Origin: a virus
Taxonomy: Duplodnaviria > Caudoviricetes
IMG/VR virus record: IMGVR_UViG_3300043602_000277
Span: 1-54,061 of that record
DNA: 54,061 nt
Reading direction: 5' to 3' (one strand)
Part shown: positions 2,402-54,061 of the stretch, piece by piece
Layout: each line of letters begins with the position of its first letter
Numbering within the stretch: the stretch's first letter is position 1
Made by a program: the position numbers and the translations under genes
The notes under the pieces: model-generated
Databases searched by the model: none
Told to the model about the DNA's origin: nothing
Seen by the model: only the letters and a program-made list of their open reading frames with translations

Positions 2402-2407
2402 TGCGCC

Positions 2408-3008: not shown

Positions 3009-3022
3009 CGAAAAACCCGCCG

Positions 3023-5489: not shown

Positions 5490-5561
5490 TGCTGTCTACT
5501 TCTCCTTTTTTTCCAGCCATTGGGGCTAAAAAAAAGTAACCGAGCACAGAAAGCAGGTGGC

Positions 5562-8251: not shown

Positions 8252-8448
8252 GCGGAGGCAAATCATTGCCAGAGACCGAAAATCGTGATACGCTTGACGG
8301 CGATTCCACCGAGTTTGTCATCGTCGCACGCCGCATACTCGAATCTGAACGCAGACTCTTACTCTCACGCTTGCACGAATTAAACCTGTTGCTCGGCTAC
8401 CCGCAGATCTACACGAGCAGGGAGCATCGGCGACAGGGACGCGAATAA
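8248..8448 (+). CDS. Small conserved helical protein (66 aa), candidate antiterminator
   Basis: ATGA overlap; LESERRLLLSRLHELNLLLGY matches LEQEHRLLIARLHLLRKQLGY of 53332-53538. Confidence 0.75.
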   Translation: MSGGKSLPETENRDTLDGDSTEFVIVARRILESERRLLLSRLHELNLLLGYPQIYTSREHRRQGRE

Positions 8449-8546: not shown

Positions 8547-8638
8547 ATTGCTATTTTCCGGCCAGGGTGCCGGCAGATATAAACCGTAGCGCGGCCAGGG
8601 CGCCGCGTACCTGCCTGAACGACAAGGAGCGACAGGCC

Positions 8639-9415: not shown

Positions 9416-9425
9416 GGAGTCAACC

Positions 9426-10061
9426 ATGCCGTGGACACAAACCTCCTTTGTCGCGACACCTGATTTTATCGTCGATCCCGAATCCATCGACCGCAACAGC
9501 GGGCGAGTGATCGACTGGAGCCAGGTGCCGGACAGCTACAAGGCAGGCACAACCTATAGCATCACCACCACCGCACAAGCGGCGGCAGCTGCTGTCGCCA
9601 TTTTGGTGCAGGCGCTGCCGGTCGCCTTACCCAGCGGCACCGTGCTCAACTTTGCCGGCGCCGGACGCTTTGCCACACTCACCGCTCCCGCAGCGGTCGG
9701 CGCTACCAGCCTGACCGTTGAAGCGCTGGATGTCATCATCCCGACCGCCACCGCTGCACCCTATACCGTCTCCAAGAGCGGCAACAAGGCCATTCTCTCC
9801 GGCACCGTCATGGCGCAGCTCGCCAGTGGCAGAGTTGTGCCGAGGGCAGCCAGGCCAGGATCGGAAACGGCGATGGGCCTGCTGTGGGGAACCGCCATCG
9901 AGAACCTGCCCAGCGCGCCACTGAGCGGATATGCCATCATTGTCGGTGGCGTTATCTACGAAAACCTTCTGCCGGAGGTGATCACAGCCTTCAAGAGCGA
10001 ACTGGTCACCAATGGCTCCGGCTGGGTCTGGCAGACCTACCAAGATAGCACGGAGGCGTAA
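9426..10061 (+). CDS. Head decoration protein (probable)
   Basis: AAGGAG RBS; between scaffold and MCP; Ala/Thr-rich, ILSGTVM...GVIYENLLP. Confidence 0.65.
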   Translation: MPWTQTSFVATPDFIVDPESIDRNSGRVIDWSQVPDSYKAGTTYSITTTAQAAAAAVAILVQALPVALPSGTVLNFAGAGRFATLTAPAAVGATSLTVEALDVIIPTATAAPYTVSKSGNKAILSGTVMAQLASGRVVPRAARPGSETAMGLLWGTAIENLPSAPLSGYAIIVGGVIYENLLPEVITAFKSELVTNGSGWVWQTYQDSTEA

Positions 10062-10063
10062 GC

Positions 10064-11191
10064 ATGTTTACTAATTTTGCCGAAGCCCTGGCAGCGCTAG
10101 GGCCAAATGCCGGCGCGCGCATCATCAACGCCGCGCGCCCCACTTCCGACTATCTTCTCAACACCTTCCTGCCTGAGCGCCTCATGACCGATTACTCGGT
10201 CAACGCCGCCAACATGCTCGTCCGCACGACGATGGCCGGCATGGTCTCGATGGACAGCCCTTACCCGCCAGGCGGATTGGTCGAGCTGCAAACCTTCTTT
10301 GAACAGTCTCTCAAGCTCGGGATCAGCAACCGCATGATCGAGGCGCAGATCCGCCAGCTCCAGCAGTTGCTCATGGGGTTGCAACTCGCCGGTTCGCTGA
10401 CCAATGACTTCCTCCAGCGCGAGGCCTTCAACTTCTACCAAAAAACGGTCGTGCAGGCCATCCTAGACCGCGCCGAGTGGATGCGGGCGCAGGCGATGAT
10501 CTATGGCGCCATCAACTGGACATTCAACCAGAAGCCGGTCTCAGTCAGCTACGGCATCCCTGCCGGCAACTTCCTGACCACACGCACCGATGCCAACAAC
10601 GATTCCTACTCCGACACCGGCAGTAAATTTTGGGAAGATGTCGCCAACGCTCAGGGCATCCTGCGCTACAACCTGCGCGGCGCCGTTATGAACACCGCCA
10701 CCTATCTCAAAATTCTGAGCCAACCGGCCAACAACATCATCGTCCTGGCGCAGAGCAACAACAGCGTCACGGTCACGCGCACGACTTCACGCAGCGGCAA
10801 CACCGTGCAAGACAACGATGCTCGCTACACCATGCAGTTTGTGCTCTACGACCGTGAGGCCGAGGTGATGGACACCACGCCACCGAACCTGGGCAAGACC
10901 GAGATCAAAAAGTTTGTGCCAGATGGCAAGATCATCTACATCGGCGCCAACACCGCCAGTGGCTATGTGGTCGGCGAAGGCTCAACACGCAACCCACGCG
11001 CCGATATGGAGATCGGCTATCACCACATCGCCCCGACCGTTGAAGGCGGCGGCGCACCTGGCCGCTGGGGCCGCATGTACGTGCCGGAAGGCTATCCGAT
11101 GCAACTGATCGCCGAGGGCGCCAGCAACGAGCTGCCCGTCATCCTGGCGCCGGAGAAGATCTGCATCGCTACCACCGAGATGCTGCCGTAG
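10064..11191 (+). CDS. Major capsid protein (lambda gpE-like)
   Basis: 375 aa; LNTFLP, AILDRAEWMRAQAMIYG, VSYGIP and C-terminal LPVI motifs; position. Confidence 0.85.
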   Translation: MFTNFAEALAALGPNAGARIINAARPTSDYLLNTFLPERLMTDYSVNAANMLVRTTMAGMVSMDSPYPPGGLVELQTFFEQSLKLGISNRMIEAQIRQLQQLLMGLQLAGSLTNDFLQREAFNFYQKTVVQAILDRAEWMRAQAMIYGAINWTFNQKPVSVSYGIPAGNFLTTRTDANNDSYSDTGSKFWEDVANAQGILRYNLRGAVMNTATYLKILSQPANNIIVLAQSNNSVTVTRTTSRSGNTVQDNDARYTMQFVLYDREAEVMDTTPPNLGKTEIKKFVPDGKIIYIGANTASGYVVGEGSTRNPRADMEIGYHHIAPTVEGGGAPGRWGRMYVPEGYPMQLIAEGASNELPVILAPEKICIATTEMLP

Positions 11192-11565: not shown

Positions 11566-11576
11566 GGAGATCCGCC

Positions 11577-11975
11577 ATGAGCGAAAGAGTCTATGTGACC
11601 TTGCCGCGCACGGTCTCCTATGCCGAAGAGGGATCGCCCGAACTGGCCTACGGGCCAGGGAGGGCGCATATCCCTCTTCCACTCGCCGAGTCGCTTAAAG
11701 AGTGGGGCATTATCAGCGAGTGGTCGACCAGCGCGCCCACTGCACCTGACACCTCGCCGATCAAGCCGAGCGACGAACTGGCCGCCGACTTCCCAGGTCG
11801 CGAATACCTCTACATGGCCGGCTACACCAGCTATGGACAGGTCGCCGAGCTGGACAAAGAAGAGCTGGATGCCTTGCCAGGCATCGGCGAAGCGACCGCT
11901 GACAAGATCCTGGCGGCGATGGCTGCTGCCGAGAAAAGGATGCCGCCAGATGCCGCACAGCCTGACGCCAGCTGA
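11577..11975 (+). CDS. Helix-hairpin-helix domain protein
   Basis: ELDALPGIGEATADKIL HhH motif. Confidence 0.75.
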   Translation: MSERVYVTLPRTVSYAEEGSPELAYGPGRAHIPLPLAESLKEWGIISEWSTSAPTAPDTSPIKPSDELAADFPGREYLYMAGYTSYGQVAELDKEELDALPGIGEATADKILAAMAAAEKRMPPDAAQPDAS

Positions 11976-37076: not shown

Positions 37077-38018
37077 TCAACCACCGACACGCCGGCGCAC
37101 TTCTTGATATTCGCGGCGGATGCCTTCCGGCAGCCAGTGGGCATAGAAGCGGCGCGTGAACTCTTCACTGGCATGGCCCATTGTGTCGCTGACGGCGGAT
37201 AGTTGCATTCCATTGTTGAGAAAGAGCATGGCATAACCGTGGCGGAAACGGTGCGGATTCTGGTAGGGCAATCCTGCTTCATGGCAGCGCCGGTGCAGCA
37301 TCTGGCGCACGCCGTTTCCGCTGAGCGCAGCCCTGGCGCCGCCGATGCCATTGTTGGAGACAAAAAGCGGATTGCCGGGAATGTTTTGGCCGTCGTGCGT
37401 TAAGGGCCGTTTCATCAGGTAGGCGCGGATCATGGGGCCTAGATCGGCGCCACAGGGGACAAGCCTGCCTTCGCCGCCTTTGCCGGTTTGCACCGTCACC
37501 TGCTGGCGAATGACGTCAACATCCGGCTGTTTGAGATCGGTCAGTTCGGAAATCCGCAATCCACACCAAAAGAGCAGATAGATGATGCAGCGATCGCGAC
37601 ATTCAACCCAGGTGTGTTCGCCTATCGAAGCCGTGAGCCGCTGGTACTGGGCCAAGCTCACATAGGGTCGCACTCCATTTGGTAAGCCGGGCGCTTCCAG
37701 ATCAGCCATTGGCGACGCCGGCAGACACTTCACCCGCTTGACGAGATAGTTATACCAGACCCGCAGACTCCGATAACGACCCGCCACCGTGTATGGACTA
37801 TAGCCGGCCTCCTGTTCATGGACGATGAACGCCTCAATCGTTTCGGGTTCGCCCATATCCAACCGGCTTTGCATTGGATCGGCTAACCAGTCGAGGTAGC
37901 GGTTGAGGTGTTGCTCATAGGAGATCAGTGTGTTCGGTGAGCGATTGAGCGCACGCTTCGTTTGCAGGAACCGTGCAACCCAGCTCGACCATAGTTCGAC
38001 ATCTGCGCGTGTTGCCAT
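37077..38018 (-). CDS. int: Tyrosine integrase
   Basis: GLRISE (R), GKGG (K), HRFRH, MGH, FY catalytic residues. Confidence 0.95.
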   Translation of the reverse strand: MATRADVELWSSWVARFLQTKRALNRSPNTLISYEQHLNRYLDWLADPMQSRLDMGEPETIEAFIVHEQEAGYSPYTVAGRYRSLRVWYNYLVKRVKCLPASPMADLEAPGLPNGVRPYVSLAQYQRLTASIGEHTWVECRDRCIIYLLFWCGLRISELTDLKQPDVDVIRQQVTVQTGKGGEGRLVPCGADLGPMIRAYLMKRPLTHDGQNIPGNPLFVSNNGIGGARAALSGNGVRQMLHRRCHEAGLPYQNPHRFRHGYAMLFLNNGMQLSAVSDTMGHASEEFTRRFYAHWLPEGIRREYQEVRRRVGG

Positions 38019-43786: not shown

Positions 43787-44481
43787 CGCGTCCATTCCAA
43801 CCCGAACTTCCCTTCGACGAAATTCCCTACGGCTACTGCCAATGCGGCTGCGGGCAAAAGACCCATATTGAAACCCATACCCATCCAGAACGCGGCCAGT
43901 TCGCTGGTGAGCCACGACGCTTTCTGCGTGGGCATCAAGGCCGCAAACCTACACCCAAAGCCGATGAACTCAAGATTTGCTCGCGATGCAAGCAGGGCAA
44001 ACCTTTATCTGATTACTCCCAACGTCGGAGCGGCAAAAGAGCCGGTCAATACTATTCGCACTGCCGCGCCTGTGCAGTTGAGGCGACGATGGCAAGCCGC
44101 TCAAAAGACGCTTCGTATCAAGTGCGTCAAAGGGAACTTCAGCGAAAATTTCGCGAGCGTCATCAGGAGCGACTTACTATCAAGTCATCTGAGCGATATG
44201 CTAAGAATCCTGAAGCTAGAAAAGCTGGCGCACGAAAAACCAGAGAGAAAAATCCGTTGCGCGAAAAGGCGCATATTGCCGTTCGACGCGCCATAGCACG
44301 GGGCGATCTTCCTCCTGCAACAGCAATGGTATGTGAACGATGCCAAGAAGCGCAGGCTGCTCACTGGCATCACGATATGGGATACGCCGAGGAATATCGT
44401 CTACACGTAATCGCTCTATGCAAGTCGTGTCATGGAAAGGCGCATTGGCTAGATATTGGCGAATCTAATCGGACTTCATGA
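43771..44481 (+). CDS. Zn-finger/HNH-like endonuclease
   Basis: CQCGCG; CSRC...CRAC; CERC...HH..Y...LCKSCH. Confidence 0.75.
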   Translation: MSDHTTRPFQPELPFDEIPYGYCQCGCGQKTHIETHTHPERGQFAGEPRRFLRGHQGRKPTPKADELKICSRCKQGKPLSDYSQRRSGKRAGQYYSHCRACAVEATMASRSKDASYQVRQRELQRKFRERHQERLTIKSSERYAKNPEARKAGARKTREKNPLREKAHIAVRRAIARGDLPPATAMVCERCQEAQAAHWHHDMGYAEEYRLHVIALCKSCHGKAHWLDIGESNRTS

Positions 44482-46336
44482 TTTCGAGGGAATAGAAATA
44501 GCGGCTCCAGATAGTTGGATCCTGGATACAATCGCGCTCAGTGAAAACCCATCGCCCAAGATTTACCCAAGTAACTTCAATACGATTGTCAGGGTTAACT
44601 GGGCATATGGCAGCGGCGGAACCTTGCCCTTGCCATCCGTTTACGAGGCCTTCTCGGAGCTGGTCGCCGCCTATGTCGATGGCTGTACTGGCTGCCGGCG
44701 CTGGATCATCGGCAACGAGCCAAACCTGAGCCGTGAATGGCCCGACAACACGCCCATCTATCCCTGGCACTATGCCGCCTGCTACAAGCTCTGCTGGCAA
44801 GCCATCCATGCGCTGCCGGGCCATGCCAACGACGAGGTGCTGGTCGCTGGCAGTGGGCCGTGGAACGCCGAGCTAAAGTACAACAGCAACAAAAACGGCG
44901 ACTGGATTGTCTATTTTACCGACGTGATTAACTTGGTTGGGGATGCCTGCGACGGCTATAGCATCCATGCCTATACCCATGGCTACGATGTGTCCCTAGT
45001 CACGTCATCGGCGCGTATGGATCGCCCCTTCCAGAACCACTTTTACGAGTTCTACACCTATCGCGATTATTGCCTTGCCATCCCGCCTGAGCTGCGCTAT
45101 CTGCCGGTCTATCTGACGGAGGCCAACGGCAATGGCCCGTGGCAAGCCGTGGGGCTGATGCCGGCCATGTTGCAGGAGATCGATAGCTGGAACCATAGCA
45201 AGCTGCCCAAGATTCACAGCGTGATCTTCTACCGCTATCCACGCTATGACCAGTTTTACATTGAGGGCCGCGGCGATGTCATGGCCGAATACCAACGGGC
45301 CGTCGCCCTGGGCTATCAGGCGCCTATCACACCCACATTGCCCACGCCGGAACCGCCCGACCCAGAGCCGCCACGGCCCACGCCTGCGCCTGAGCCTGCG
45401 CGTGACATCGACCCGCGCCTGCTCGCCCGCGGCGTTACACTCACGCGTGCGACTGTTCCTGTGGGCACCTATGCTTGGCGCGTAGAGGAGGGCATCTACT
45501 ATGCTTGGGGCGAAGGGCCAAACGATGCCCAGGGCCGGCGCGCCGACTATGTGGACGTGGTGAATGGCAACGGTGAGCGCGTCATTGGTACGCCGATCAT
45601 GCACTGGTGGTCTAGCGGCTCAGACACCAAGCCGGCTGAGAACAAACGCGATCCGTGGATGACCGCTCAGGGTAAAGACGGCTATGCCCTCGACTTCCCT
45701 TTTGGCGCTACCTGGCCCAGCTACGGCGTCAAAATTGCCGACGGTACGCCCAGCGATGAAGTGTGGGGCCTCGGCTATGGCGATGTGATCAACCCGAACC
45801 ACCACACGGCCAGCTATTTTAAGTTTGTACGCGTACTAGAGGGCGTTACAGCGCCGATTCCTCCCACACCACCAGTACAGGAAGGGGGTCTAATCCATCC
45901 CCTTCCTGGTGCGGTGATTACGCAGCATTGGGGCCAGGATGCCGAGAGCTACGCACGTTTTGGCATTTGGGGCCATAACGGGACGGATCTAGGAAATAGA
46001 CCACTCCGCACGCCGATCCGCTGCATCGCCGCCGGCATCGTGGCAATGTCCGACTTTGACCCTGCCTATGGCCACTATGTGCGCGTCGATCACCGGGACT
46101 TGGAGTGCTATTCGATGTACTGCCATTTGGATGAGTCGGGCGCAGCGGCGGGTACGCGCGTGGAAGCGGGGGACACGATGGGGCTGCTGGGGTCAAGCGG
46201 CAATAGTTCTGGGCCTCATTTGCACGTTGAAATTCGGTTACAAAACAAAGATGGCACGTACCGCGAAGATACGCCTATGTCTAAAGGCCGAGTTGACCCT
46301 GAGACTTGGTGCGCCATGCACAATCTCAAATTGTGA
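44456..46336 (+). CDS. Modular endolysin B: glycoside-hydrolase-like domain + Pro linker + middle domain + M23 peptidase
   Basis: WIIGNEPN and YLTE (clan GH-A-like acid/base and nucleophile); HNGTD and HLH (M23). Confidence 0.85.
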   Translation: MANLIGLHDFEGIEIAAPDSWILDTIALSENPSPKIYPSNFNTIVRVNWAYGSGGTLPLPSVYEAFSELVAAYVDGCTGCRRWIIGNEPNLSREWPDNTPIYPWHYAACYKLCWQAIHALPGHANDEVLVAGSGPWNAELKYNSNKNGDWIVYFTDVINLVGDACDGYSIHAYTHGYDVSLVTSSARMDRPFQNHFYEFYTYRDYCLAIPPELRYLPVYLTEANGNGPWQAVGLMPAMLQEIDSWNHSKLPKIHSVIFYRYPRYDQFYIEGRGDVMAEYQRAVALGYQAPITPTLPTPEPPDPEPPRPTPAPEPARDIDPRLLARGVTLTRATVPVGTYAWRVEEGIYYAWGEGPNDAQGRRADYVDVVNGNGERVIGTPIMHWWSSGSDTKPAENKRDPWMTAQGKDGYALDFPFGATWPSYGVKIADGTPSDEVWGLGYGDVINPNHHTASYFKFVRVLEGVTAPIPPTPPVQEGGLIHPLPGAVITQHWGQDAESYARFGIWGHNGTDLGNRPLRTPIRCIAAGIVAMSDFDPAYGHYVRVDHRDLECYSMYCHLDESGAAAGTRVEAGDTMGLLGSSGNSSGPHLHVEIRLQNKDGTYREDTPMSKGRVDPETWCAMHNLKL

Positions 46337-46355
46337 TGAAAGGGAAGGGATCGTG

Positions 46356-46502
46356 ATGAGTCGTCCACTGATTCTGATTTCGCTATTGCTGGCCGTCGTC
46401 GGCGCCATCTTTGGCCTGGCGCACATTGCCGAGGCCTTTGTGCCGCTGCTCTTTGCCGCTGCCATCCTGCTGACGGATATTGGGATACTGACCGGCAACT
46501 AA
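46356..46502 (+). CDS. Small 2-TM membrane protein (holin candidate), 48 aa
   Basis: MSRPLILISLLLAVVGAIFGLAHIAEAFVPLLFAAAILLTDIGILTGN; directly after the lysin. Confidence 0.7.
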   Translation: MSRPLILISLLLAVVGAIFGLAHIAEAFVPLLFAAAILLTDIGILTGN

Positions 46503-47050
46503 TGAAAGCGCACTGGCTTTACCTAAAATATGTTTTGCGCCATAAGTGGTATGTATTCCTGTGGTGCTGTCGGTATGGGATTCCGTGGGCGGGCATTGTT
46601 CACGACCTGAGCAAATTCCAGCCAATCGAATGGTTCCCCTATGTTGACAAGTTTTATGGTGGGCCGTGGCCTGAGCAGCACTATGGAGATATGCGTAACC
46701 AGTTTGAGGATAGGTATACGCAGCCCTGGGTAGACCGTCGCTTTGACGCCGCATGGAATCATCATCAAAAGTGCAATCTGCATCATTGGCAATATTGGGT
46801 ACTGCTTGAGGATAGCGGCAAGATTGGCGCTTTGCCCATGCCCGACCGTTACCGCAAAGAAATGTTGGCCGACTGGCGCGGGGCGGGGATGGCGATTCGT
46901 GGGGTAGATAACACTGTCAAATGGTACACCGAAAACTTCTCCAAGATGCTTTTGCATCCACAGACGCGTGATCGGATTGAGCGTGAATTGGATTTGATTG
47001 TCAACGTCAATGGCGAGGATATGCGCCTTCTTGATTCGGAGACGCTGTAA
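46502..47050 (+). CDS. HD-domain protein (DUF5662-like)
   Basis: RHKWYV...HDLSKF...AW.HH...N.HHWQYW...EMLADW. Confidence 0.8.
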   Translation: MKAHWLYLKYVLRHKWYVFLWCCRYGIPWAGIVHDLSKFQPIEWFPYVDKFYGGPWPEQHYGDMRNQFEDRYTQPWVDRRFDAAWNHHQKCNLHHWQYWVLLEDSGKIGALPMPDRYRKEMLADWRGAGMAIRGVDNTVKWYTENFSKMLLHPQTRDRIERELDLIVNVNGEDMRLLDSETL

Positions 47051-47056
47051 CGTGCT

Positions 47057-47218
47057 ATGCCACGCGGCGATCTGGCGCTGTTCCTGTTCGTATGCAGCCT
47101 GGCGGTCTTTTTTGCCGAGATGCAGTACCGGCGTGAAGCGTCTACGCGTTGGCTGTGTCTTGCGCTAGTCTGGATTACGATTGTGGCCATGCTGATCTAC
47201 GTGTACAGCGGGGCTTAA
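47057..47218 (+). CDS. Small 2-TM membrane protein, 53 aa; not in the ORF track
   Basis: MPRGDLALFLFVCSLAVFFAEMQYRREASTRWLCLALVWITIVAMLIYVYSGA fills the gap exactly. Confidence 0.55.
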   Translation: MPRGDLALFLFVCSLAVFFAEMQYRREASTRWLCLALVWITIVAMLIYVYSGA

Positions 47219-47220
47219 CC

Positions 47221-47520
47221 ATGTCAACAGACAATTGGTTCGTCATCATCATGTTTATCGGCGTGTACATCTGTTGCCTGCTCCTGCTCGACGGCGCCCA
47301 CCGTGCCCACATCGCCGCGCTGAAGGGGGCGCATTACGAGCAGGTGGCATCCTTGCGCTCCTACATCCGCACGTTGAGCCGCGAACGGCTGTGGCTGGAG
47401 GCGGAGCTGGCACGCGTCAAGGACAAGGCGAAGCAGGTGCAGGCTGAGCCGGAACATATCGAATGGATGCCGTTGCAGTGGTTACCGCCGTCCGAGGAAT
47501 ATGATGGCGACCGCAATTGA
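47221..47520 (+). CDS. TM + coiled-coil protein, paralog of 2408-2731
   Basis: Direct sequence similarity. Confidence 0.8.
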   Translation: MSTDNWFVIIMFIGVYICCLLLLDGAHRAHIAALKGAHYEQVASLRSYIRTLSRERLWLEAELARVKDKAKQVQAEPEHIEWMPLQWLPPSEEYDGDRN

Positions 47521-47932
47521 GCTGTTGCCGGAATTTATCGGCATCTTCGTGCCGCTGGAGATCATGCGCCTGGAAGAGGTGGGCGGGCCGAAACCAACGG
47601 AGTTGGCCGCAGCGTCTGCCTACTGGGCGGATCGCCTGGACGCCGGCGAGCTTGACGAGCTGCTCTTCCCGGTCAAGTGCAAGACGGCGCGCAGCGCCAG
47701 CATGTTGGTGTCAATCATCGCCTGCCTGGCGTTTGAGACGGGCGGCGTGCGGGTCTTTGGACACCACTTTGTTGCCTATGAACCAGAGCCCGCACATAAA
47801 CAGCCCTGGCACAAGCCCACCGTGGTTTATGTGCCGCTACAGGGAACGGGCTTTGAGGTCGGTTCGGACATTGACGGACAGGACGGCACGTGGCCGCCGC
47901 CACTAATGGACAAAGAAAAAACCGGCTGCTAA
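47501..47932 (+). CDS. Paralog of 2724-3008 with a C-terminal extension
   Basis: Direct sequence similarity. Confidence 0.8.
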   Translation: MMATAIELLPEFIGIFVPLEIMRLEEVGGPKPTELAAASAYWADRLDAGELDELLFPVKCKTARSASMLVSIIACLAFETGGVRVFGHHFVAYEPEPAHKQPWHKPTVVYVPLQGTGFEVGSDIDGQDGTWPPPLMDKEKTGC

Positions 47933-48279
47933 GCCGGCTCTAATTCCATCTGTAATTGTTCGAGCTTGACAGGCGTTTTCTGTGCCTGCTTGCCATAGGT
48001 GATGATGCGCTGCCTTTGCTCTTCACGCTGCACCTGTTCCCGTTGCCGCTCTTCCACCGCCTCAGCCTGTTCGACAAGGCCGGCGGGCAGCTCGTAGGGA
48101 TTGTGCTCAATTACGTCTAGCTCGCCGCGGCCGATTCTGCGAATCATGACTTGCCAGCTCGGTATGCTACGCCTGGCGGGGCCACGGGTGGGACGCGAAC
48201 GGGTCTGCACGGCTAGTTCTTGCAGCCGCTCCAGTTCGGCGGCGGTCAGGTCGATGCGGTGATGTTCTCGGTGTTCCAT
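47929..48279 (-). CDS. Paralog of 3023-3400 (RHH-like)
   Basis: LPAGL.E.A.AVEERQREQ...KQAQKTP...LEPA shared; GGAG RBS before ATG 48279. Confidence 0.75.
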   Translation of the reverse strand: MEHREHHRIDLTAAELERLQELAVQTRSRPTRGPARRSIPSWQVMIRRIGRGELDVIEHNPYELPAGLVEQAEAVEERQREQVQREEQRQRIITYGKQAQKTPVKLEQLQMELEPA

Positions 48280-48522
48280 GTGTTTCTCCAATCTGAACAG
48301 GGCGGGCAAGTTGTGATGCTGCTGTGGCCCTATAGCTACGTATATAGCACGAATGTTAACGGTAATCAAGATGACGGGGATACAATTTTGACAGGTGCTG
48401 TCAATTTTTCCGCCGCCTGCCCCTCTCCGCCGCCACCCAGAGGGTTCCCGCCGCCAAAGGCTGACAGCGGGCGCGAAGTAGCAGGACTGCTAGCGGCGGG
48501 CGACATATGACAGGTTGAGCCA

Positions 48523-49005
48523 ATGGCTTTATCGGCCAAACAAAGCGCATTCGTAGAGGAATATTTGCGATGCTGGAATGCGACAGACGCTTATCAGACC
48601 GTTTATCCAAAGTCGAGTCGGGACGCGGCCAGAGCACACGCAGCGCGATTGGTAGCAAATGGTAGCATTGCCGCAGAGATTCAGCGCCGTGTAGATGAAC
48701 GCGCCATGTCCGCCAATGAAGTGCTTGATCGTCTTGCGGAGCAGGCCAGGGCCGGCTATAGCGCCTATCTCACAGCGGACGGTGCAGTAGATTTTGCTCG
48801 GCTGGTCGCCGATGGCAAGGGACACTTGGTCAAGGGCATCAAAGATACAGCGCAAGGACGTAATATCGAGTTTCACGACGCCCAGGCCGCGCTCGTGCAA
48901 ATCGGCAAGCACCACAAGCTCTTTACAGATAACGTGCAACAATCCGGTGAGGTAGTGGTAAAAGTCCAATATGGCGATGACGGAACTGACAGTACGCCTG
49001 AATAA
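48523..49005 (+). CDS. terS: Terminase small subunit B
   Basis: LSAKQSAFVEEYL..WNAT.AY; central part nearly identical to TerS A. Confidence 0.92.
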   Translation: MALSAKQSAFVEEYLRCWNATDAYQTVYPKSSRDAARAHAARLVANGSIAAEIQRRVDERAMSANEVLDRLAEQARAGYSAYLTADGAVDFARLVADGKGHLVKGIKDTAQGRNIEFHDAQAALVQIGKHHKLFTDNVQQSGEVVVKVQYGDDGTDSTPE

Positions 49006-50242
49006 GCCACACCCCAAACAGCGCCAGTTTCTGCGCTGCCCGGCCAAGCGCATCGTGGTGCGGGCCGGCCGACGCGGCGGCAAAACGGTCGGCATGGCCA
49101 TCAAGGCCGTGGAGAGTTTTCTGCGAGGACACCGCGTGCTCTACGCCGCGCCCACGGCTGACCAGATCAACACCTTTTGGCGCCATGTGCGCGATGCTCT
49201 TCAGCCTTGCATCGACGCCGGCCTCTATTACAAGAACGAAACCGAGAAGATCGTCGAATTGCGTGGCACGGAGCAGCGCATCAAAGCAAAGACCGCTTGG
49301 AACAGCGACACTCTTCGTGGAGACTATGCCGATCTGCTCATCCTCGATGAGTGGCAGTTGATGAATGAAGATGCCTGGGGCGTCGTCGGTGCGCCGATGC
49401 TTCTGGACAATGACGGCGATGCGGTCTTTATCTATACGCCGCCATCGGCGCGTACGGCTGGCACCAGCAAGGCGCATGACAAAAAACATGCGGCCAAGCT
49501 CTTTGCGGCAGCGGCTGCCGATACGACGGGGCGTTGGGCGGCCTTTACCTTTAGCAGCCACGACAACCCCTATTTGAGCCAAGATGCTTTGGGGGAAATT
49601 GCCGGCGACATGAGCAATCTGGCCTATCGCCAGGAAATCATGGCTGAGGACATTGACGAGGTTCCGGGGGCATTGTGGACGCGGGCGAACTTAGAAAAGC
49701 ATCGTATCAAGTCAGCGCCTTCAATGTACCGCATCGTCGTGGCGGTAGACCCGGAAGCCACGGCCACGGCCACCAGCGCCGAGACGGGCATCATCGTGGC
49801 AGGCATCGACGAAAACGAGATCGGCTATCTCTTGGAGGATTGTACGCTGCGGGGATCGCCTGGCGAGTGGGGTATGGCTGCCGTGCGCGCCTTTGATCGC
49901 TGGGACGGCGATCACATTGTCGCCGAAACCAATAACGGCGGTGACATGGTGAAATTTGTGGTCGAGGCGGCTGCCAAGGAGTTATATCGGCAGGAGGAGC
50001 GCAAGAGCGACCGTATACCTTACAAGAAACTGCACGCCAGCCGGGGAAAACATACGCGCGCCGAGCCGGTATCAACGCTCTACGAGAATGGCCGTATTAA
50101 GCATGTCGGTGCTTACGCCGAGCTGGAAGATCAGTTATGTACGTGGTTGCCGGGTGATACGAGTCCCGATCGCTTAGATGCGGCTGTGTGGGCCTTTACC
50201 GAGTTGATGCTTTCAGAGAAGAAAAAAGCCGGAACATGGTAA
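48971..50242 (+). CDS. terL: Terminase large subunit B (different lineage from A)
   Basis: Walker A AGRRGGKT, Walker B LILDE, VVAVDP, SPDRLDA. Confidence 0.95.
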   Translation: MAMTELTVRLNKPHPKQRQFLRCPAKRIVVRAGRRGGKTVGMAIKAVESFLRGHRVLYAAPTADQINTFWRHVRDALQPCIDAGLYYKNETEKIVELRGTEQRIKAKTAWNSDTLRGDYADLLILDEWQLMNEDAWGVVGAPMLLDNDGDAVFIYTPPSARTAGTSKAHDKKHAAKLFAAAAADTTGRWAAFTFSSHDNPYLSQDALGEIAGDMSNLAYRQEIMAEDIDEVPGALWTRANLEKHRIKSAPSMYRIVVAVDPEATATATSAETGIIVAGIDENEIGYLLEDCTLRGSPGEWGMAAVRAFDRWDGDHIVAETNNGGDMVKFVVEAAAKELYRQEERKSDRIPYKKLHASRGKHTRAEPVSTLYENGRIKHVGAYAELEDQLCTWLPGDTSPDRLDAAVWAFTELMLSEKKKAGTW

Positions 50243-50258
50243 GAATGAGTGAGGAACA

Positions 50259-51758
50259 ATGTCAGACATCATCCTGATCGCTAACAAAGACGGGCAACCG
50301 GTTGGCGCCATCCCGCGGCCCAGCGTAAACGCCCGCTCCGTCCTCAGCGACCGCCTGGCCCTGGGCGGCTATGGCACATCGTTCAGTGGCGCCCGTGACT
50401 ACTTCGATGTGCTGGGCTATCCCAAGGCACTCAGTATCGATGCCTATTGGGGCAAGTTTGAGCGTGATCCGTTGGGCGGGCGCATCGTCGAATTTCCGCC
50501 GGCAGAGACATGGCGGGATACGCCGACGGTCAAGGATGGGCGTGATAAGGATGCCCTCGACGACACCGCCTTTGCTAAAGCGTGGGCCGACTTTGCCGAA
50601 CGAATGCGCGTCTATCACTACTGCAAGCGCGTCGACATCCTGTGCGGCATCGGGCGCTTTAGCATCCTCCTGATTGGCGTGGCCGGCGGCGGTGATTTGG
50701 AGAGCGAAGTCAAGCGCGTCACTAGCCTTGACCAGATCCTCTACCTGCGCCCGTACGGTGAGCAATCGGTCGAGGTGACCGAATACGAGAACGACCCGGC
50801 AAGCCCGCGCTTTGGCCTGCCGCGCATCTACACGGTCACGTTTGCCGATACCAATACCCTGGGCAATATGGGCACCATTCAGCGCCGCGTCCATGCCAGC
50901 CGCGTGATCCATGTCGCCGAGGGGCTGCTGGAAAACGACGTGTACGGGATGCCGCGGCTGCAACGCGTCTATAACCTGCTCGACGACATCCTCAAGTTGG
51001 TGGGTGGGGCTGCCGAGGCCAGTTGGCTGCTGATGCGGAAGGGCTTTGTACTCAACATCGACCCGGAAGCGGAACTATCCGCCGAGGCCGCCGCCAGCAT
51101 CGAAGAGGAGTTTGACGAATACGAGCATGGTCTACGCCGCTTTATGAAAACGCGCGGCGTCACGGTCAGCGACCTTGGCAGCGAAGTGGTTGACCCGTCG
51201 GGGCCGTTTAGCGTCATCATCGGCCTGATTAGCGCCGCCACCGGCATCCCGCAGCGCATCCTGCTTGGCAGCGAGCGCGGCGAGCTGGCATCTTCGCAAG
51301 ACGGTGCCAATTGGGCGGGGGCCATTGCCAGCCGCCAGCTCAACTTTGCCGAGCCGACGATCCTGCGCCCGCTGATTGACCGCCTCATCCAGTGGGGCGC
51401 TATGCCGGCGCCCACGCAGGGCCGCTATACCGTCGTGTGGGATGAACTCTTTGAACTCAACGACCAGGAACGGGCCGCCATCGCCGTGGCCTGGGCCGAT
51501 GCCATCCAGAAGCTAGCAGCCGTCTACGGTATGCCGCCGGTAACGATGGAGGAATGGCGCGGCGACTTCTCGCCCTTCCCCGGCGAATTGCCGGTGACGG
51601 CCCTGGAGCCTGTACCGCCGCCCACCATACCCGCCAATCTGCCTGGCCAGGATGTGCTGGGGCAAGTGGCCGACCTGGTGGGCAACGCCGGCTACAGTGG
51701 GCCGGAAGCGTTTGCGCTGGTCAACGCAGCGGCTAGGCTGATTGCGAGGCAAGGATGA
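50259..51758 (+). CDS. Portal protein B (DUF1073-like)
   Basis: DPASPRFGLP..Y, RVHASRVIH, IPQRILLGSERGELAS. Confidence 0.85.
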   Translation: MSDIILIANKDGQPVGAIPRPSVNARSVLSDRLALGGYGTSFSGARDYFDVLGYPKALSIDAYWGKFERDPLGGRIVEFPPAETWRDTPTVKDGRDKDALDDTAFAKAWADFAERMRVYHYCKRVDILCGIGRFSILLIGVAGGGDLESEVKRVTSLDQILYLRPYGEQSVEVTEYENDPASPRFGLPRIYTVTFADTNTLGNMGTIQRRVHASRVIHVAEGLLENDVYGMPRLQRVYNLLDDILKLVGGAAEASWLLMRKGFVLNIDPEAELSAEAAASIEEEFDEYEHGLRRFMKTRGVTVSDLGSEVVDPSGPFSVIIGLISAATGIPQRILLGSERGELASSQDGANWAGAIASRQLNFAEPTILRPLIDRLIQWGAMPAPTQGRYTVVWDELFELNDQERAAIAVAWADAIQKLAAVYGMPPVTMEEWRGDFSPFPGELPVTALEPVPPPTIPANLPGQDVLGQVADLVGNAGYSGPEAFALVNAAARLIARQG

Positions 51759-52018
51759 CACCAGAACAGCTAGCCAAGTGGGCCGAGAACCAAATTCAAG
51801 CCCTGATCCGCATCGGCTATGACGCCTCTGAGGCCGAGCGCAGCGTCAATTGGGTGCTGATGCACTTGCCGCCAGGGGCCGATCCAAGAACGTACGTATT
51901 CCCGGCTGAGACGCTGAGTGAACCGTTAGATAGCGCCGCTGTCGAGGGCGCACGCATAGCATGGTATACAAATGATGCGATCCCCAACCGCTACAAACGT
52001 TTACTCGACGCACGCTAG
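51755..52018 (+). CDS. Hypothetical head-module protein
   Basis: ATGA-coupled to portal B. Confidence 0.65.
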   Translation: MTPEQLAKWAENQIQALIRIGYDASEAERSVNWVLMHLPPGADPRTYVFPAETLSEPLDSAAVEGARIAWYTNDAIPNRYKRLLDAR

Positions 52019-52688
52019 CCCGTCGCCAACGCTGCCCGGCTACACCTTTGAGGATGAGCTGGGCCGCTACCGTTCCAACGTGTCGGGCCGTTTCGTGGCG
52101 CGCAAGGATATTCTGTCGCTGACGGACGCCCAGATCAACGCCAGCGAGGCGCGCATGACCGACCTGACGACGGCGGTGATGGAAGGGCGTATCAGCCCGA
52201 CGGTATGGCAGGAGGCCATGAGGACGGAAGCCAAGCAGCAAGTGCTGTCACAGGCCGCCCTCGGCTCAGGCGGTTGGGAGAGAATCAGCCAGCAATCCTA
52301 TGGCCGCGCCGGCGCTGACTTGCGCCAACTCTACGCCAAGATTAGTGGCACGGCTGCCGACATCGCAGACGGCAAAATCACGATGGCGCAAGCGCAGGCA
52401 CGCGCCAACGAATACGCCGGTCACGGTCGCAGCCACTTCTACACGGCCGAGCGGGAGAAGGTCAGGCCATCGGCGCCGAACAAAGTGTTCCTGGAGCGGC
52501 GTATGTTGGGCGGGGGCGGCAAAACGTGTAGCGATTGCGTTTCCTTCTATGACCAGGGTTGGCAGCCGTTTGGCCTGCTACCGCCGCCCGGTGTGGACAG
52601 CGTATGTCGTGGCAACTGTAAGTGCAGTCTGATTCGCATGGAAGTCGAAGCGGGCACCGTGGGCGAGTGGATCGGCGGCAAGAAATGA
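51972..52688 (+). CDS. Minor head (MuF-like) protein B
   Basis: GRYR...GRFV; TCSDC...PG.DS.C.GNC.C motif; start uncertain. Confidence 0.7.
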   Translation: MMRSPTATNVYSTHASPSPTLPGYTFEDELGRYRSNVSGRFVARKDILSLTDAQINASEARMTDLTTAVMEGRISPTVWQEAMRTEAKQQVLSQAALGSGGWERISQQSYGRAGADLRQLYAKISGTAADIADGKITMAQAQARANEYAGHGRSHFYTAEREKVRPSAPNKVFLERRMLGGGGKTCSDCVSFYDQGWQPFGLLPPPGVDSVCRGNCKCSLIRMEVEAGTVGEWIGGKK

Positions 52689-53329
52689 AACGAATCTTTG
52701 TAACCTTTGGCACCGGGCCGCACGTCGAATATCTGAACATCAGCCGGCCATCGTTTATAGCCTATGCCGAGCGTCACGGCTATGACTATCAGGAAATCTA
52801 TATTCCGAGCGACCGCCCAGCATCGTGGAGCAAAATCCCTGCAATGCTACAAGCTCTTACGCTGGCCGATGAGGCATTGTGGGTTGATGCCGATGTCGTC
52901 ATCGTAGACGGCAGCAGGGATTTGGCCGCAGAAGTGAGTATCGACGCCATCCAAGCCGTAGTTTTACACACCTATCATCGTGGCTTCTTCCTGGGCCACG
53001 TGCCCAGCGCCGGCGTGTGGTTGGTGCGCCAAGCCATGCGCCCTACGCTCACGCAGATCTGGACAATGACGCAGTACCTGAACCATCCCTTTTGGGAAAT
53101 GGCTGCATTCATCGAATTGATGGGCTGCACCTTCAACGGCGATCGGATATTTCCTGTTACCTTGACCGAACCGACCAATCTTTATCGCAGCACCCAATTC
53201 CTTGATGAGGATTGGAACTCGATTGACACGCTCAACCATCAGGCCACGCCGCGCTTTATGCACATGCCGGCGCTCACGCACGAACAGCGCCTCGCTGAGA
53301 TGCACTTCTGGGCGGGGCAGGCAGTGTAG
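52685..53329 (+). CDS. Glycosyltransferase (GT34/MNN10-like)
   Basis: YAERHGYD...SWSKI...LWVDADVVI (DxD)...AGVWLV...WE..A. Confidence 0.8.
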   Translation: MKRIFVTFGTGPHVEYLNISRPSFIAYAERHGYDYQEIYIPSDRPASWSKIPAMLQALTLADEALWVDADVVIVDGSRDLAAEVSIDAIQAVVLHTYHRGFFLGHVPSAGVWLVRQAMRPTLTQIWTMTQYLNHPFWEMAAFIELMGCTFNGDRIFPVTLTEPTNLYRSTQFLDEDWNSIDTLNHQATPRFMHMPALTHEQRLAEMHFWAGQAV

Positions 53330-53331
53330 AG

Positions 53332-53538
53332 ATGAGCGAATCACGCGCAGGCTATCTCACGAACCAAGCCGCAAAGGTTGTTGCTCAAAACGGCAATAAG
53401 TGTGATACCATTACCGTCAACCGGGCCGACCTTGAGCAGGAACATCGTTTACTCATCGCCCGCTTGCATCTGTTACGCAAGCAACTCGGCTACGCACCGC
53501 TGACCGACAAAGAACAACAGCGACAAGCCGCTAAATAA
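53332..53538 (+). CDS. Small conserved helical protein (68 aa), paralog of 8248-8448
   Basis: Shared E.RLL..RLH.L...LGY motif and equivalent position. Confidence 0.75.
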   Translation: MSESRAGYLTNQAAKVVAQNGNKCDTITVNRADLEQEHRLLIARLHLLRKQLGYAPLTDKEQQRQAAK

Positions 53539-53564
53539 ATAATTCCGCCTCACGGTAAAGCCCT

Positions 53565-53607
53565 ACGGCGCAATTCTGGTCAATTCCAGAGTTGCGCCGT
53601 TTTTTTT
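53565..53607 (+). terminator. Intrinsic terminator upstream of the DUF2213-like gene
   Basis: ACGGCGCAATTCTGG-tcaatt-CCAGAGTTGCGCCGT-T7. Confidence 0.85.
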
Positions 53608-53629
53608 GTTGTTTTGGAGCGCCATCGCA

Positions 53630-54061
53630 ATGCTCACCCTACAATTTTCCGGCAACGCCACCACAGGCCAAGTCAAAGAGATCACCCACGGCGGCAGGCG
53701 CTATCTGGTGTCACCCGTCGTCGCCCTGCGTGAGGGCATCCTCAACGATACCTACGTCAGCGCCGCCGAATTCGGCAAGTTCGCCTCATCCTGGCAGGGC
53801 CGCCCCGTTCCGATTGCACACCCCAAAGCCGATGGCCTGCCCACATCCGCCAACACGCCCGACATCTGGGCCAATGACGTGCTGGGCCATCTCTGGAATG
53901 TGGCCGTGGACGGCGGCGCGCTCAAAGGCGAAATCTGGATCACGTTTGAATGGACTATATCTGAGGGCATCGCTCCGCCCATTGTCCCACCAGCGACGGA
54001 CGTTGAGACAGGGCGTGTTACAGCACAAGCCGGCCTCAACGTTCGCCGTGGGCCGGATACG
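53630..54061 (+). CDS. N-terminus of a DUF2213-like head protease/scaffold gene, fused in frame to the lysin A C-terminus
   Basis: GGAG RBS; YLVSPVVALREGILN...WQGRPVPIAHP...LKGEIWI then TFEWTISEGIAPP...SH3b. Confidence 0.8.
   Translation, partial: MLTLQFSGNATTGQVKEITHGGRRYLVSPVVALREGILNDTYVSAAEFGKFASSWQGRPVPIAHPKADGLPTSANTPDIWANDVLGHLWNVAVDGGALKGEIWITFEWTISEGIAPPIVPPATDVETGRVTAQAGLNVRRGPDT
53935..54061. repeat. Terminal direct repeat, copy 2
   Basis: Identical to 1-127. Confidence 0.97.

What the first reader, a model, noticed from the sequence alone, without database searches (positions are those of the whole stretch)
44456..53934. One phage circle with two divergent lysis-packaging-head modules
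Seen: the gene order of 1-8546 (M23 lysin, 2-TM peptide, TM-coiled-coil, conserved gene, reverse RHH-like gene, terS, terL, portal, MuF-like, 67-aa gene, terminator) recurs at 44456-53607. The small genes and terS are clear but diverged paralogs. TerL and portal are of different lineages (KARQLGLS vs AGRRGGKT; SPP1-like vs DUF1073-like). Module B has no capsid or tail genes. There is only one att core and one integrase, lying between the modules. Inference: this is the expected product of two related prophages in tandem at tRNA-Lys that circularised by illegitimate recombination from mid-lysin A to mid-head-protease B. If real, it is a mosaic phage with two complete terminase-portal sets and one capsid.
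Basis: partly seen in the sequence, partly recalled or inferred. Interest (0 to 1): 0.85.

Follow-up and report, generated by a model that had tools for sequence, protein, structure and literature searches.

The report
Phage genome with doubled packaging module
This is one circular soil-phage genome in which an 11.6-kb block of lysis, DNA-packaging and capsid genes from a second phage has been spliced into the head-protease gene of an ordinary 42-kb phage, so it carries two packaging sets but only one capsid gene; it looks like a real but probably recent recombination product rather than a new kind of system.

Summary
The record is a 53,934-bp circle (127-nt end overlap) with two lysis-terS-terL-portal modules. 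The small genes and terS are paralogs (48-90% aa); terL and portal are unrelated.

Two ~41.7-kb relatives, each with one module, are collinear with window 11,577 to 53,940 all the way round, through the integrase. The A-specific DNA is therefore only an 11.6-kb block, from the lysin C-part to the major capsid gene. It replaces ~3 kb: the rest of the DUF2213 head protease and the capsid genes.

- **Left joint:** illegitimate and in frame. Codon 104 of DUF2213 meets the linker before the SH3-M23 part of lysin A, with at most 7 nt of microhomology.
- **Right joint:** exactly at the start codon of the first shared connector gene.

In the probable source run, an independent k=31 assembly bridges the left joint in one 18.8-kb contig, at backbone depth (16.3-16.8). 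No string longer than 26 nt links the modules. An assembler chimera is unlikely. The joint was found in no other data set.

One oddity remains: the contig starts 6 nt from the joint.

Best reading: a real, probably recent recombinant, with module B as an orphaned passenger.

The parts
1..127 (.). Left copy of the 127-nt end overlap (equals 53935-54061). It is an assembler-type circular overlap and contains the illegitimate joint.
   Evidence: Exact over 127 nt and no further; classed as direct terminal repeats.
53630..53941 (+). First 104 codons of the B-type DUF2213 head-maturation-protease gene, cut in mid-domain.
   Evidence: 104 of 107 residues identical to P0001. 27 of 27 homologs are full length. 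In P0001 the DUF2213 domain spans aa 51-167 and the PHROG head maturation protease matches span aa 42-168. Alignments to 8 of 8 related loci stop at 53940 or 53941.
2..730 (+). Pro-rich linker plus the SH3 and M23 peptidase part of lysin A. It is in frame with the DUF2213 stump, giving a fused ORF of 344 aa from the ATG at 53630.
   Evidence: Pfam SH3_3 and Peptidase_M23. The frame is continuous across the circle. The closest homolog, P0028 (320 aa), aligns only from query residue 25 and has 92 further N-terminal residues.
727..3400 (.). A-type lysis and accessory genes: 727-1200, a regulator-like gene at 1225-1599(-), a hydrophobic gene at 1618-1941, a TM plus coiled-coil gene at 2408-2731, a conserved gene at 2712-3008, and 3023-3400(-).
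   Evidence: Paralogy to B genes; phrog_1373 transcriptional regulator for 1225-1599; hydrophobic segments.
3553..4080 (+). Small terminase A.
   Evidence: Terminase_2, 94.0 bits; 64% identical to terS B.
4038..5489 (+). Large terminase A.
   Evidence: Terminase_6N, 24.6 bits; phrog_2, E 4e-34.
5520..7355 (+). Portal A, named by position and by its relatives.
   Evidence: No Pfam or PHROG hit. 304 homologs, the best non-self at 62% identity; 7 of the 120 listed carry PF05133. Conserved next to the scaffold and capsid genes in L022, L025, L028 and L032.
7352..8251 (+). Gene after portal A, possibly MuF-like.
   Evidence: No Pfam or PHROG hit. Atlas lead to Phage_Mu_F clusters, score 0.93.
8248..8448 (+). 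66-codon gene, paralog of 53332-53538.
   Evidence: 42% over 48 aa, E 1e-7; start read from the sequence.
8567..10061 (+). Scaffold- or decoration-like genes of head module A (two overlapping frames).
   Evidence: Conserved in A-type relatives; weak PHROG head decoration hit.
10064..11191 (+). Major capsid protein A, the only capsid gene in the circle.
   Evidence: Phage_cap_E, 27.4 bits; phrog_29 major head protein, E 6.5e-17.
11576..11577 (.). Right boundary of the A block. Homology to single-module relatives resumes at the ATG of the first connector gene, 11577-11975.
   Evidence: The BLASTN alignment to G001 starts at window 11576.
37077..38018 (-). The only integrase (tyrosine type).
   Evidence: Phage_integrase, 89 bits; the only six-frame hit; 90% aa identity to the G002 integrase.
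44456..46336 (+). Lysin B, 626 aa, with a C-terminal M23 domain. It is full length compared with its relatives.
   Evidence: Relatives align over residues 1-3 to 615-626.
46502..48369 (.). B-type accessory genes: DUF5662, a 2-TM peptide at 47057-47218, a TM plus coiled-coil gene at 47149-47520, 47501-47932, and 47929-48369(-).
48523..49005 (+). Small terminase B.
   Evidence: Terminase_2, 74.2 bits.
48971..50242 (+). Large terminase B, intact.
   Evidence: Terminase_6C, 45.2 bits; 91% identity over residues 1-423 to G004.
50259..51758 (+). Portal B, intact.
   Evidence: Phage_portal_3, 104.9 bits; phrog_146; 83-85% identity over residues 1-499 to G001 and G004.
51972..53538 (+). Genes after portal B: 51972-52688 (possibly MuF-like), 52622-53329, and the 68-aa gene at 53332-53538.
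   Evidence: phrog_24776; TM-score 0.54 to a Phage_Mu_F cluster.
53565..53600 (+). Intrinsic terminator just upstream of the fused ORF.
   Evidence: 15-pair stem followed by a T-run.

Best explanation
The record is one real circular DNA of 53,934 bp. It is a temperate tailed-phage backbone of a family whose single-module members measure about 41.7 kb, carrying an 11.6-kb block from a second, rarely sampled phage lineage.

**The two joints**
- The block replaces the distal three quarters of the head-maturation-protease gene (DUF2213) and the capsid genes behind it, about 3 kb in relatives.
- The left joint is an illegitimate, in-frame joint with at most 7 nt of microhomology. It links codon 104 of DUF2213 to the linker in front of the SH3-M23 part of the donor's lysin.
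- The right boundary lies exactly at the start codon of the first shared head-tail connector gene. That is where a homologous crossover, or an older module boundary, would put it.

**Origin (inferred)**
This is an unequal exchange between two related genomes with the same gene order. It would have happened during co-infection or between a phage and a resident or tandem prophage.

**Consequence (inferred)**
- Two late modules lie in series.
- Only set A (terS, terL, portal, MuF-like, scaffold, capsid) is complete. Particles, if made, are built and filled by set A.
- Lysin B, terS B, terL B and portal B are intact but have lost their protease and capsid. They ride as passengers.
- All B genes are full length and the joint was seen in one sample only, so the event is probably recent.

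**Expected fate (inferred)**
A homeologous crossover between the diverged paralogs (76-85% nt identity) would leave a tidy single-module mosaic of 44.8-45.0 kb.
For: **Left joint**
- 104 of 107 residues are identical to full-length DUF2213 protein P0001, then the match is lost.
- 27 of 27 longer homologs are unfused.
- DNA alignments of 8 of 8 related loci end at 53940 or 53941.
- In another study's run (X4), 2 contigs of a relative leave the window at 53940 and continue as normal DUF2213.
- The cut falls inside the protease-like domain, which spans aa 42-168 in P0001.

**One backbone**
- G001 (41,750 nt) is collinear with window 11,628 to 53,950 around the circle. About 3.0 kb in G001 stands in place of the window's 11.6 kb.
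- G002 (41,679 nt) has its own 127-nt end repeat.
- 3 of 3 relatives carry one lysin, one B-type portal and one DUF2213. 0 of 3 carry portal A, terL A or capsid A.

**Right boundary**
- Homology resumes at the ATG of 11577.

**Real DNA, not an assembler product**
- In run X1, Logan contigs from a different assembler (k = 31) tile the circle.
- Record 5 (18,765 nt, depth 16.4) covers 46394-54061 and continues for 11,097 nt more. By my arithmetic it ends at about window 11,224. Its secondary matches to 47540-47782 and 48703-48926 are the A paralogs.
- Record 1 (27,734 nt, depth 16.8) runs from about 11,220 to 38,953. Record 2 has depth 16.3.
- The k=31 breaks at about 11.22 kb and 38.95 kb coincide with a 10-nt tandem repeat and a palindromic repeat cluster.
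- The longest exact strings shared by the A block and module B are 26, 25 and 23 nt.

**Coherence of the A head set**
- Portal, scaffold and capsid are syntenic in L022, L025, L028 and L032.

**Mosaicism is common in the group**
- L009 combines A-like terS/terL with a B-like portal.
- L028 combines a B-like terL with an A-like portal.

**B genes are undecayed**
- They are full length against their relatives.
Against: - **One data set only.** The joint is seen in a single data set, which is probably the one the record was assembled from. One search is independent of the assembler but not of the reads or the library.
- **No other holder found.** Exact-pattern scans for the joint and for the A side next to it found 0 contigs in IMG/VR and 0 in JGI metagenome contigs. 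The own record is left out of those scans.
- **No local depth.** Logan depth is one figure per contig, so depth at the joint itself is unknown. Of the loose ends, 60 more were not shown.
- **The contig starts at the joint.** The contig begins 6 nt before the joint. If the start of an isolated cycle were arbitrary, the joint would fall inside the 127-nt overlap with a chance of about 127/53,934 = 0.2%. This points to a branch vertex there in the original assembly graph, for example a minor path from an uncut lysin A. I could not inspect that graph.
- **Parents not found.** No parent was identified. The best portal A relative is 62% identical and the best lysin A relatives are 47-53%. The donor's gene order is therefore inferred.
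- **Size.** At 53.9 kb the genome is about 29% longer than its 41.7-kb relatives. If head A holds no more than those genomes, a headful packager could not carry a whole copy.
- **Uneven depth in one region.** Depth drops to 11.4-12.6 over 43.5-46.4 kb, so the population is not uniform.
Confidence: 0.7

Rival explanations
1. Two related prophages sat in tandem at one att site. A single illegitimate recombination between lysin A of the first and DUF2213 of the second looped out a circle. In that circle, 1-36.9 kb comes from phage A and 36.9-53.9 kb from phage B.
For: - The topology matches what is seen: one illegitimate joint plus an intact att/integrase region.
- Only one rare event is needed.
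- A and B share gene order and have paralogous small genes, as expected of phages that could use the same site.
Against: - Window 11.6-36.9 kb is as similar to the single-module relatives G001 and G003 as module B is (74-86% against 78-90% nt). It is collinear with one 41.75-kb genome. Nothing marks it as belonging to the donor.
- The visible second boundary is at 11,576/11,577, not at att.
- No tRNA piece was found.
- An aberrant excision product would be rare beside its integrated parents. In X1 the circle is the only form seen and attP is bridged by a 27.7-kb contig.
Confidence: 0.15
2. This is an assembly or library chimera. Two separate phages of about 42-45 kb were joined by chimeric reads or by graph mis-resolution, and the circle does not exist.
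For: - The contig starts 6 nt from the joint and the 127-nt overlap has the size of a typical largest k-mer. This suggests a graph vertex at that spot.
- Related phages at 90-95% identity co-occur in X1: 11 of the 26 contigs laid.
- No second data set holds the joint.
Against: - A second assembler with k = 31 passes the joint unbranched in an 18.8-kb contig. Parental continuations at comparable depth would have broken it.
- Backbone and module depths are equal (16.3-16.8), not additive.
- There is no shared string longer than 26 nt between the modules and only up to 7 nt at the joint. A de Bruijn graph cannot create the link without many reads that contain it.
Confidence: 0.08
3. The A block is a capsid-forming satellite or other mobile element that inserted itself into a late gene of its helper phage.
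For: - The block brings its own terS, terL, portal and capsid genes.
- Satellites embedded in helper late genes have been described (bioRxiv 10.1101/2022.07.18.500453; search listing and start of the abstract only).
Against: - The block has no integrase or serine recombinase.
- The A-block ORFs scanned gave no replication gene or other mobile-element hit.
- No flanking repeats were found.
- The left end is a truncated lysin fused to a truncated protease, and 3 kb of the recipient is missing. That is a replacement, not an insertion.
Confidence: 0.03

Closest known systems
Mosaic tailed-phage genomes made by illegitimate recombination, with boundaries at gene or domain borders. Described for mycobacteriophages in PMC9262239 (passages read). 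The Hendrix model of random joints followed by selection is recalled, not seen.
   Same: - A non-homologous joint with a few bases of microhomology falls at an interdomain linker.
- The other boundary falls exactly at a start codon.
- Relatives carry different combinations of terS/terL and portal types.
   Different: Published mosaics are tidy end products with one copy of each function. Here both the old and the new lysis-packaging modules are still present in series, and a truncated fusion gene marks the joint.
Oversize or partially duplicated genomes of headful-packaging phages. P22 with inserted DNA and lambda tandem duplications are recalled from memory. The Sf6 work on genome length and terminal redundancy is PMC5630979 (passages read).
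   Same: Extra DNA sits in a phage with a Terminase_2-type small terminase. The genome is about 29% longer than its close relatives.
   Different: - The doubled segments are heterologous: terL and portal are unrelated and the paralogs are 76-85% identical. This is not an unstable identical tandem duplication.
- Head capacity is unknown. Capsid A relatives (45-47% identity) sit on a 99-kb record rated 96% complete and on a 60.9-kb fragment.
Tandem prophages and hybrid phages arising from them (general knowledge, recalled).
   Same: Two related temperate phages with the same gene order contribute to one circle with one integrase.
   Different: Only 11.6 kb can be assigned to the second phage. 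The rest is collinear with one 41.75-kb genome.
Capsid-forming phage satellites and helper-embedded satellites (bioRxiv 10.1101/2022.07.18.500453; listing and start of the abstract only).
   Same: A second packaging and capsid gene set sits inside a phage late region.
   Different: There is no integrase, no replication module and no att ends. The block replaces helper genes and begins inside a truncated gene.

Membership tests
Circular phage genome assembled with an end overlap | Identical ends, and a closed tiling path in an independent assembly. | tested here: met
   - Bases 1-127 equal 53935-54061 exactly.
- Five X1 Logan contigs tile 34062-54061 and run on into 128 to about 11,224 and from about 11,220 to 34,061 (end positions by my arithmetic).
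- The reads are the same ones the record probably came from.
Small terminase, Terminase_2 (PF03592), two copies | Score over the Pfam cut-off. | tested here: met
   94.0 and 74.2 bits against a cut-off of 26.1.
Large terminase, two copies of different lineages | ATPase and nuclease domains recognised; no mutual similarity. | tested here: met
   - A: Terminase_6N, 24.6 bits (cut-off 22), and phrog_2, E 4e-34.
- B: Terminase_6C, 45.2 bits (cut-off 22.6).
- No A/B BLASTP hit at E <= 0.01.
Portal protein, two copies | Match to a portal family. | tested here: inconclusive
   - B is met: Phage_portal_3, 104.9 bits, and phrog_146.
- A has no Pfam or PHROG hit. 7 of the 120 listed homologs carry PF05133. 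Its position between terL and the capsid genes is conserved.
DUF2213 (PF09979) / head maturation protease of module B | Complete domain. | tested here: not met
   - No Pfam hit for the stump at E <= 0.01.
- Only the first 104 residues are present.
- The domain spans aa 51-167 in the full-length relative P0001.
Product of tandem prophages joined through att | Two phage-length halves of different parentage meeting at an att site; a tRNA-derived core. | tested here: inconclusive
   - One backbone is collinear with a 41.75-kb relative.
- There is one integrase.
- No tRNA piece was found.
- The parentage of 11.6-36.9 kb cannot be told without the parents.
Capsid-forming satellite (PICI-like) | Own integrase, replication module and att ends. 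| tested here: not met
   - No recombinase in the block.
- No such hits among the A-block ORFs scanned.
- No flanking repeats.
Assembly chimera | Unequal depth, a branch at the joint, or a shared repeat at least as long as k. | tested here: not met
   - Depths are 16.3-16.8 and an unbranched 18.8-kb contig crosses the joint.
- The longest shared string is 26 nt.
- Local depth and the original graph could not be seen.
MuF-like minor head protein (PF04233), both modules | Match to the family. | tested here: inconclusive
   - No Pfam hit.
- Atlas leads only. A: score 0.93, 158 shared features. B: TM-score 0.54 to a Phage_Mu_F cluster.

The most novel reading that the evidence does not exclude
The circle is a replicating, particle-forming phage caught midway through a head-module swap. 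An illegitimate joint has brought in the new lysis-packaging-capsid block while the old packaging module is still intact. This would be a natural example of the 'add first, tidy up later' intermediate that models of phage mosaicism assume but that finished genomes do not show. Both terminase-portal sets would be expressed from one late transcript. Homeologous recombination between the paralogous small genes or the terS genes should then yield a 44.8-45.0-kb single-module phage.
Probability: 0.3. Interest if true: 0.6.

Novelty: new variant of a known kind. Interest (0 to 1): 0.4.

Why it matters
**Biological interest**
- Phage mosaicism is usually inferred from finished, tidy genomes. The untidy first products of illegitimate recombination are assumed but seldom seen.
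- If this circle is real and propagating, it shows such a product in nature. It has a datable scar (the DUF2213-lysin fusion), an orphaned but intact terminase-portal set, and built-in homeologous repeats that predict its resolution.
- It offers simple tests. Which terminase sets the packaging start? Does a foreign portal compete for the capsid? How much extra DNA does the new head tolerate?

**Practical point**
- A heteroduplicated 54-kb record flagged as complete can distort completeness estimates for its relatives.
- Two relatives of about 41.7 kb are rated 77% complete, one of them with its own end repeat. That figure equals 41.7/54.06. That this record is the yardstick is my inference.

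Tried and rejected
**Other holders of the joint**
- An exact 55-nt pattern across the joint and a 64-nt pattern just inside the A side each found 0 contigs in IMG/VR and 0 in JGI metagenome contigs. The own record is excluded from those scans, so this shows neither presence nor absence of the source contig.
- Runs X2 and X3 hold small shares (0.18 and 0.13). Their laid contigs do not reach the joint, so they say nothing about it.

**Search for the donor**
- Portal A as a single protein: no relative in IMG/VR.
- No tblastn match in 50,697 cultured-phage records.
- The portal A alignment found nothing in GTDB genomes.
- In IMG/VR the alignment found 26 loci, all at 55% identity or less.
- Lysin A found 4 loci. 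The best, L048, is a long B-type lysin with an A-like M23 domain.

**Other negative checks**
- The fused ORF's N-part shows no similarity to the A gene in the corresponding position, 8567-9415.
- att/tRNA: nothing beyond a hairpin at 37015-37069.
- Pfam on 20 backbone ORFs gave almost no names.

**Literature**
- The first search for two portal or terminase sets was swamped by surgical papers.
- The refined search listed 13 papers. In the two I opened, 'two large terminase' means one split terL (PMC10773633, passage) or two adjacent ORFs (PMC11512304, passage).
- Within, I therefore found no printed case of two heterologous terS-terL-portal sets in one phage genome. That is weak evidence of absence.
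- Supplementary files were not consulted.

**Tools and arguments set aside**
- I rejected the argument that 54 kb is too long to be viable as decisive. Capsid A relatives occur on much longer records, though at only 45-47% identity.

Full report
**What the record is.**
The window is an entire IMG/VR virus record classed as having direct terminal repeats. Bases 1-127 repeat exactly at 53935-54061 and the match stops there. The sequence is therefore a 53,934-bp circle written with a 127-nt overlap, the usual signature of a circular path in a de Bruijn assembly. That 127 is a common largest k-mer is my recollection. No tRNA and no Rfam family at gathering score is present.

**The observation.** Both modules exist as described.
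- Module A (PHROG):
  - SH3 + M23 lysin part at 2-730
  - terS at 3553-4080
  - terL at 4038-5489
  - a 611-aa gene in the portal position at 5520-7355
  - 7352-8251
  - a 66-codon gene at 8248-8448
  - scaffold-like genes
  - a major capsid gene at 10064-11191
- Module B:
  - a 626-aa M23 lysin at 44456-46336
  - DUF5662
  - small membrane genes
  - terS at 48523-49005
  - terL at 48971-50242
  - a Phage_portal_3 portal at 50259-51758
  - 51972-52688
  - 52622-53329
  - a 68-aa gene
  - a strong terminator at 53565-53600
- BLASTP between the sets gives six paralogous pairs, at 42-90% identity with E from 1e-7 to 1e-58. It gives nothing for terL, portal or the gene after portal.
- One tyrosine integrase and no serine recombinase are found in six frames.

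**The joint at the contig ends.**
- An ORF starting at the ATG at 53630 runs across the circle's closing point into 2-730.
- Its first 104 of 107 aligned residues are identical to the start of a 413-aa protein, P0001.
- All 27 of 27 longer homologs are DUF2213 (PF09979) proteins of 362-465 aa, and none is fused to a lysin.
- In P0001 the DUF2213 domain covers residues 51-167, and PHROG 'head maturation protease' profiles match residues 42-168. The window's copy is cut in mid-domain.
- DNA alignments to 8 of 8 related IMG/VR loci stop at 53940 or 53941.
- In run X4, from another study, two contigs of a relative leave the window at 53940 and continue as ordinary DUF2213.
- Downstream, the closest lysin homolog, P0028 (320 aa, 47% identity), aligns only from residue 25 of the 2-730 frame and has 92 more residues at its own N-terminus. 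Lysin A is therefore truncated too, in or just before a proline-rich linker.
- The joint is thus illegitimate and in frame, with no more than about 7 shared bases.

**How much of the circle is 'A'.**
- Relatives found with the DUF2213 stump include G001 (41,750 nt) and G002 (41,679 nt, with its own 127-nt end repeat).
- By tblastx, G001 is collinear with the window from 11,628 through connectors, tail genes, the lysogeny region, early genes, lysin B, portal B and the DUF2213 start at 53,950, going once round the circle.
- The only structural difference is that G001 has about 3.0 kb where the window has 11.6 kb. The G001 stretch holds the rest of DUF2213, a 157-aa gene, a 343-aa gene in the capsid position and a 125-aa gene.
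- Homology resumes precisely at the ATG of 11577-11975.
- Each of 3 relatives examined has one lysin, one B-type portal and one DUF2213, and none has portal A, terL A or capsid A.
- The picture of two prophage-length halves meeting at att is therefore not what the comparison shows. The donor-specific DNA is one 11.6-kb block.
- A tandem-prophage origin remains possible if the donor shared the backbone, since the topology is the same.

**Is it real?** One search found eight runs holding at least a twentieth of the words of 44062-54061. X1 holds all of them and may be the source. Logan contigs of X1, made with another assembler at k = 31, were laid on 34062-54061.
- Record 5 (18,765 nt, depth 16.4) covers 46394-54061 and continues for 11,097 nt, that is, to about window 11,224 by my arithmetic. 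Its secondary matches to 47540-47782 and 48703-48926 are the A paralogs, which confirms that it holds the A block.
- Record 1 (27,734 nt, depth 16.8) spans about 11,220 to 38,953.
- Record 2 (depth 16.3) spans 38985-43549.
- Records 3 and 4 (depths 12.6 and 11.4) span 43520-46415.
- The joint is crossed without a branch, and module and backbone depths are equal, not additive.
- The k=31 breaks at about 11.22 kb and 38.95 kb coincide with a 10-nt tandem repeat and a cluster of palindromic repeats.
- The A block and module B share no exact string longer than 26 nt. Neither k = 31 nor k = 127 could join them without many reads that contain the joint.

Limits:
- The reads are probably the same ones the record was built from.
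- Contig depth is not local depth.
- 60 loose ends were not shown.
- Pattern scans found the joint in no other contig collection.

**An unexplained coincidence.** The contig begins 6 nt upstream of the joint. For an arbitrary start, the chance that the joint falls within the 127-nt overlap is about 0.2%. My inference is that the original graph had a vertex there, which means a minor alternative path into the A side, such as a few reads from a phage with uncut lysin A. If so, the shared bases at 53935-53941 are the microhomology of the crossover. This needs the raw reads or the graph.

**The donor.**
- Portal A has 304 homologs, but the best non-self is 62% identical.
- It has no match among cultured phages, none in GTDB genomes, and at most 55% identity in IMG/VR.
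- In four of those loci the portal, scaffold-like and capsid genes are syntenic with window 5.6-11.2 kb, so head set A is a coherent module.
- Records with capsid A relatives (45-47% identity) measure 99,175 nt (96% complete) and 60,872 nt (66% complete). A head able to hold 54 kb cannot be ruled out.
- Natural single-copy mixtures exist: L009 has A-like terS/terL with a B-like portal, and L028 has a B-like terL with an A-like portal.

**Mechanism.**
- Shown: the two joints, the single backbone, the loss of protease and capsid B, and the intact state of lysin B, terS B, terL B and portal B.
- Inferred:
  - An unequal exchange took place between two related genomes of like gene order, with one illegitimate and one homologous or older module boundary.
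  - Head assembly and packaging are carried out by set A.
  - Set B is a recent passenger.
  - Resolution by homeologous recombination between direct repeats of 76-85% identity would split the circle into 44,789 + 9,145 bp or 44,970 + 8,964 bp. The larger product would be a tidy single-module mosaic.

**Comparison with what is known.**
- Illegitimate recombination with boundaries at gene or domain borders is the accepted source of phage mosaicism (PMC9262239, passages).
- Headful phages trade genome length against terminal redundancy (PMC5630979, passages).
- Oversize P22 genomes, lambda tandem duplications and Hendrix's account of mostly non-viable random recombinants are recalled, not seen.
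- In some searches I found no printed case of two heterologous terS-terL-portal sets in one phage. The two candidates opened were split or adjacent terL ORFs.
- A satellite reading fails because the block lacks a recombinase, a replication module and ends.

**Verdict.**
- It is most likely a real and recent heteroduplicated recombinant, a new variant of a known kind.
- Interest is moderate. It would rise if the circle is shown to be packaged and propagating.

Noticed in passing
window 11192-11250: About 5.5 tandem copies of a 10-nt unit lie directly after the stop codon of capsid gene A, in front of a 100-aa ORF at 11263-11565. The k=31 contigs of run X1 break there.
   Followed up: partly
window 38924-39014: A cluster of four copies of a 16-nt palindromic motif sits inside ORF 38655-39488. 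It could be an operator- or iteron-like array. It coincides with a 31-nt gap between X1 contigs.
   Followed up: no
window 43520-46415: In run X1 this stretch (end of the early region plus most of lysin B) lies on separate contigs of depth 11.4-12.6, against 16.3-16.8 elsewhere. About 30% of molecules may carry something else or a deletion there.
   Followed up: no
window 28500-33200: A low-GC island (49-52% against about 58%) holds a ParB_N-like gene (30792-31694) and a GmrSD_N-type gene (31723-33003). Window 30339-33175 has no counterpart in relative G001. It is likely a moron or defence cargo locus.
   Followed up: partly
window 36898-37075: This stretch next to the integrase stop is conserved with G002 in all frames. 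It contains a perfect long hairpin (37015-37069) flanked by A and T runs, probably a two-way terminator near attP. No tRNA piece was found.
   Followed up: partly
L009 (G003) 4430-9023; L028 (G008) 4082-6032: These are natural single-copy mosaics. L009 joins A-like terS/terL (75-84% nt) to a B-like portal. L028 joins a B-like terL end to an A-like portal.
   Followed up: partly
G001 and G002 (records of L006 and L010): Both relatives of about 41.7 kb are rated 77% complete, although G002 has its own 127-nt end repeat. 41.7/54.06 = 0.77, so a 54-kb genome like this one may be serving as the yardstick and deflating their scores (the link is my inference).
   Followed up: no
window 3416-3505 and 48300-48388: A non-coding stretch upstream of both terS genes is conserved at 77-81%. 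It is a candidate late-promoter or packaging-related signal.
   Followed up: no
L048 2127-2588: A long B-type lysin has an M23 domain closer to lysin A (61-76% aa) than to lysin B. This indicates domain-level shuffling among these lysins.
   Followed up: no
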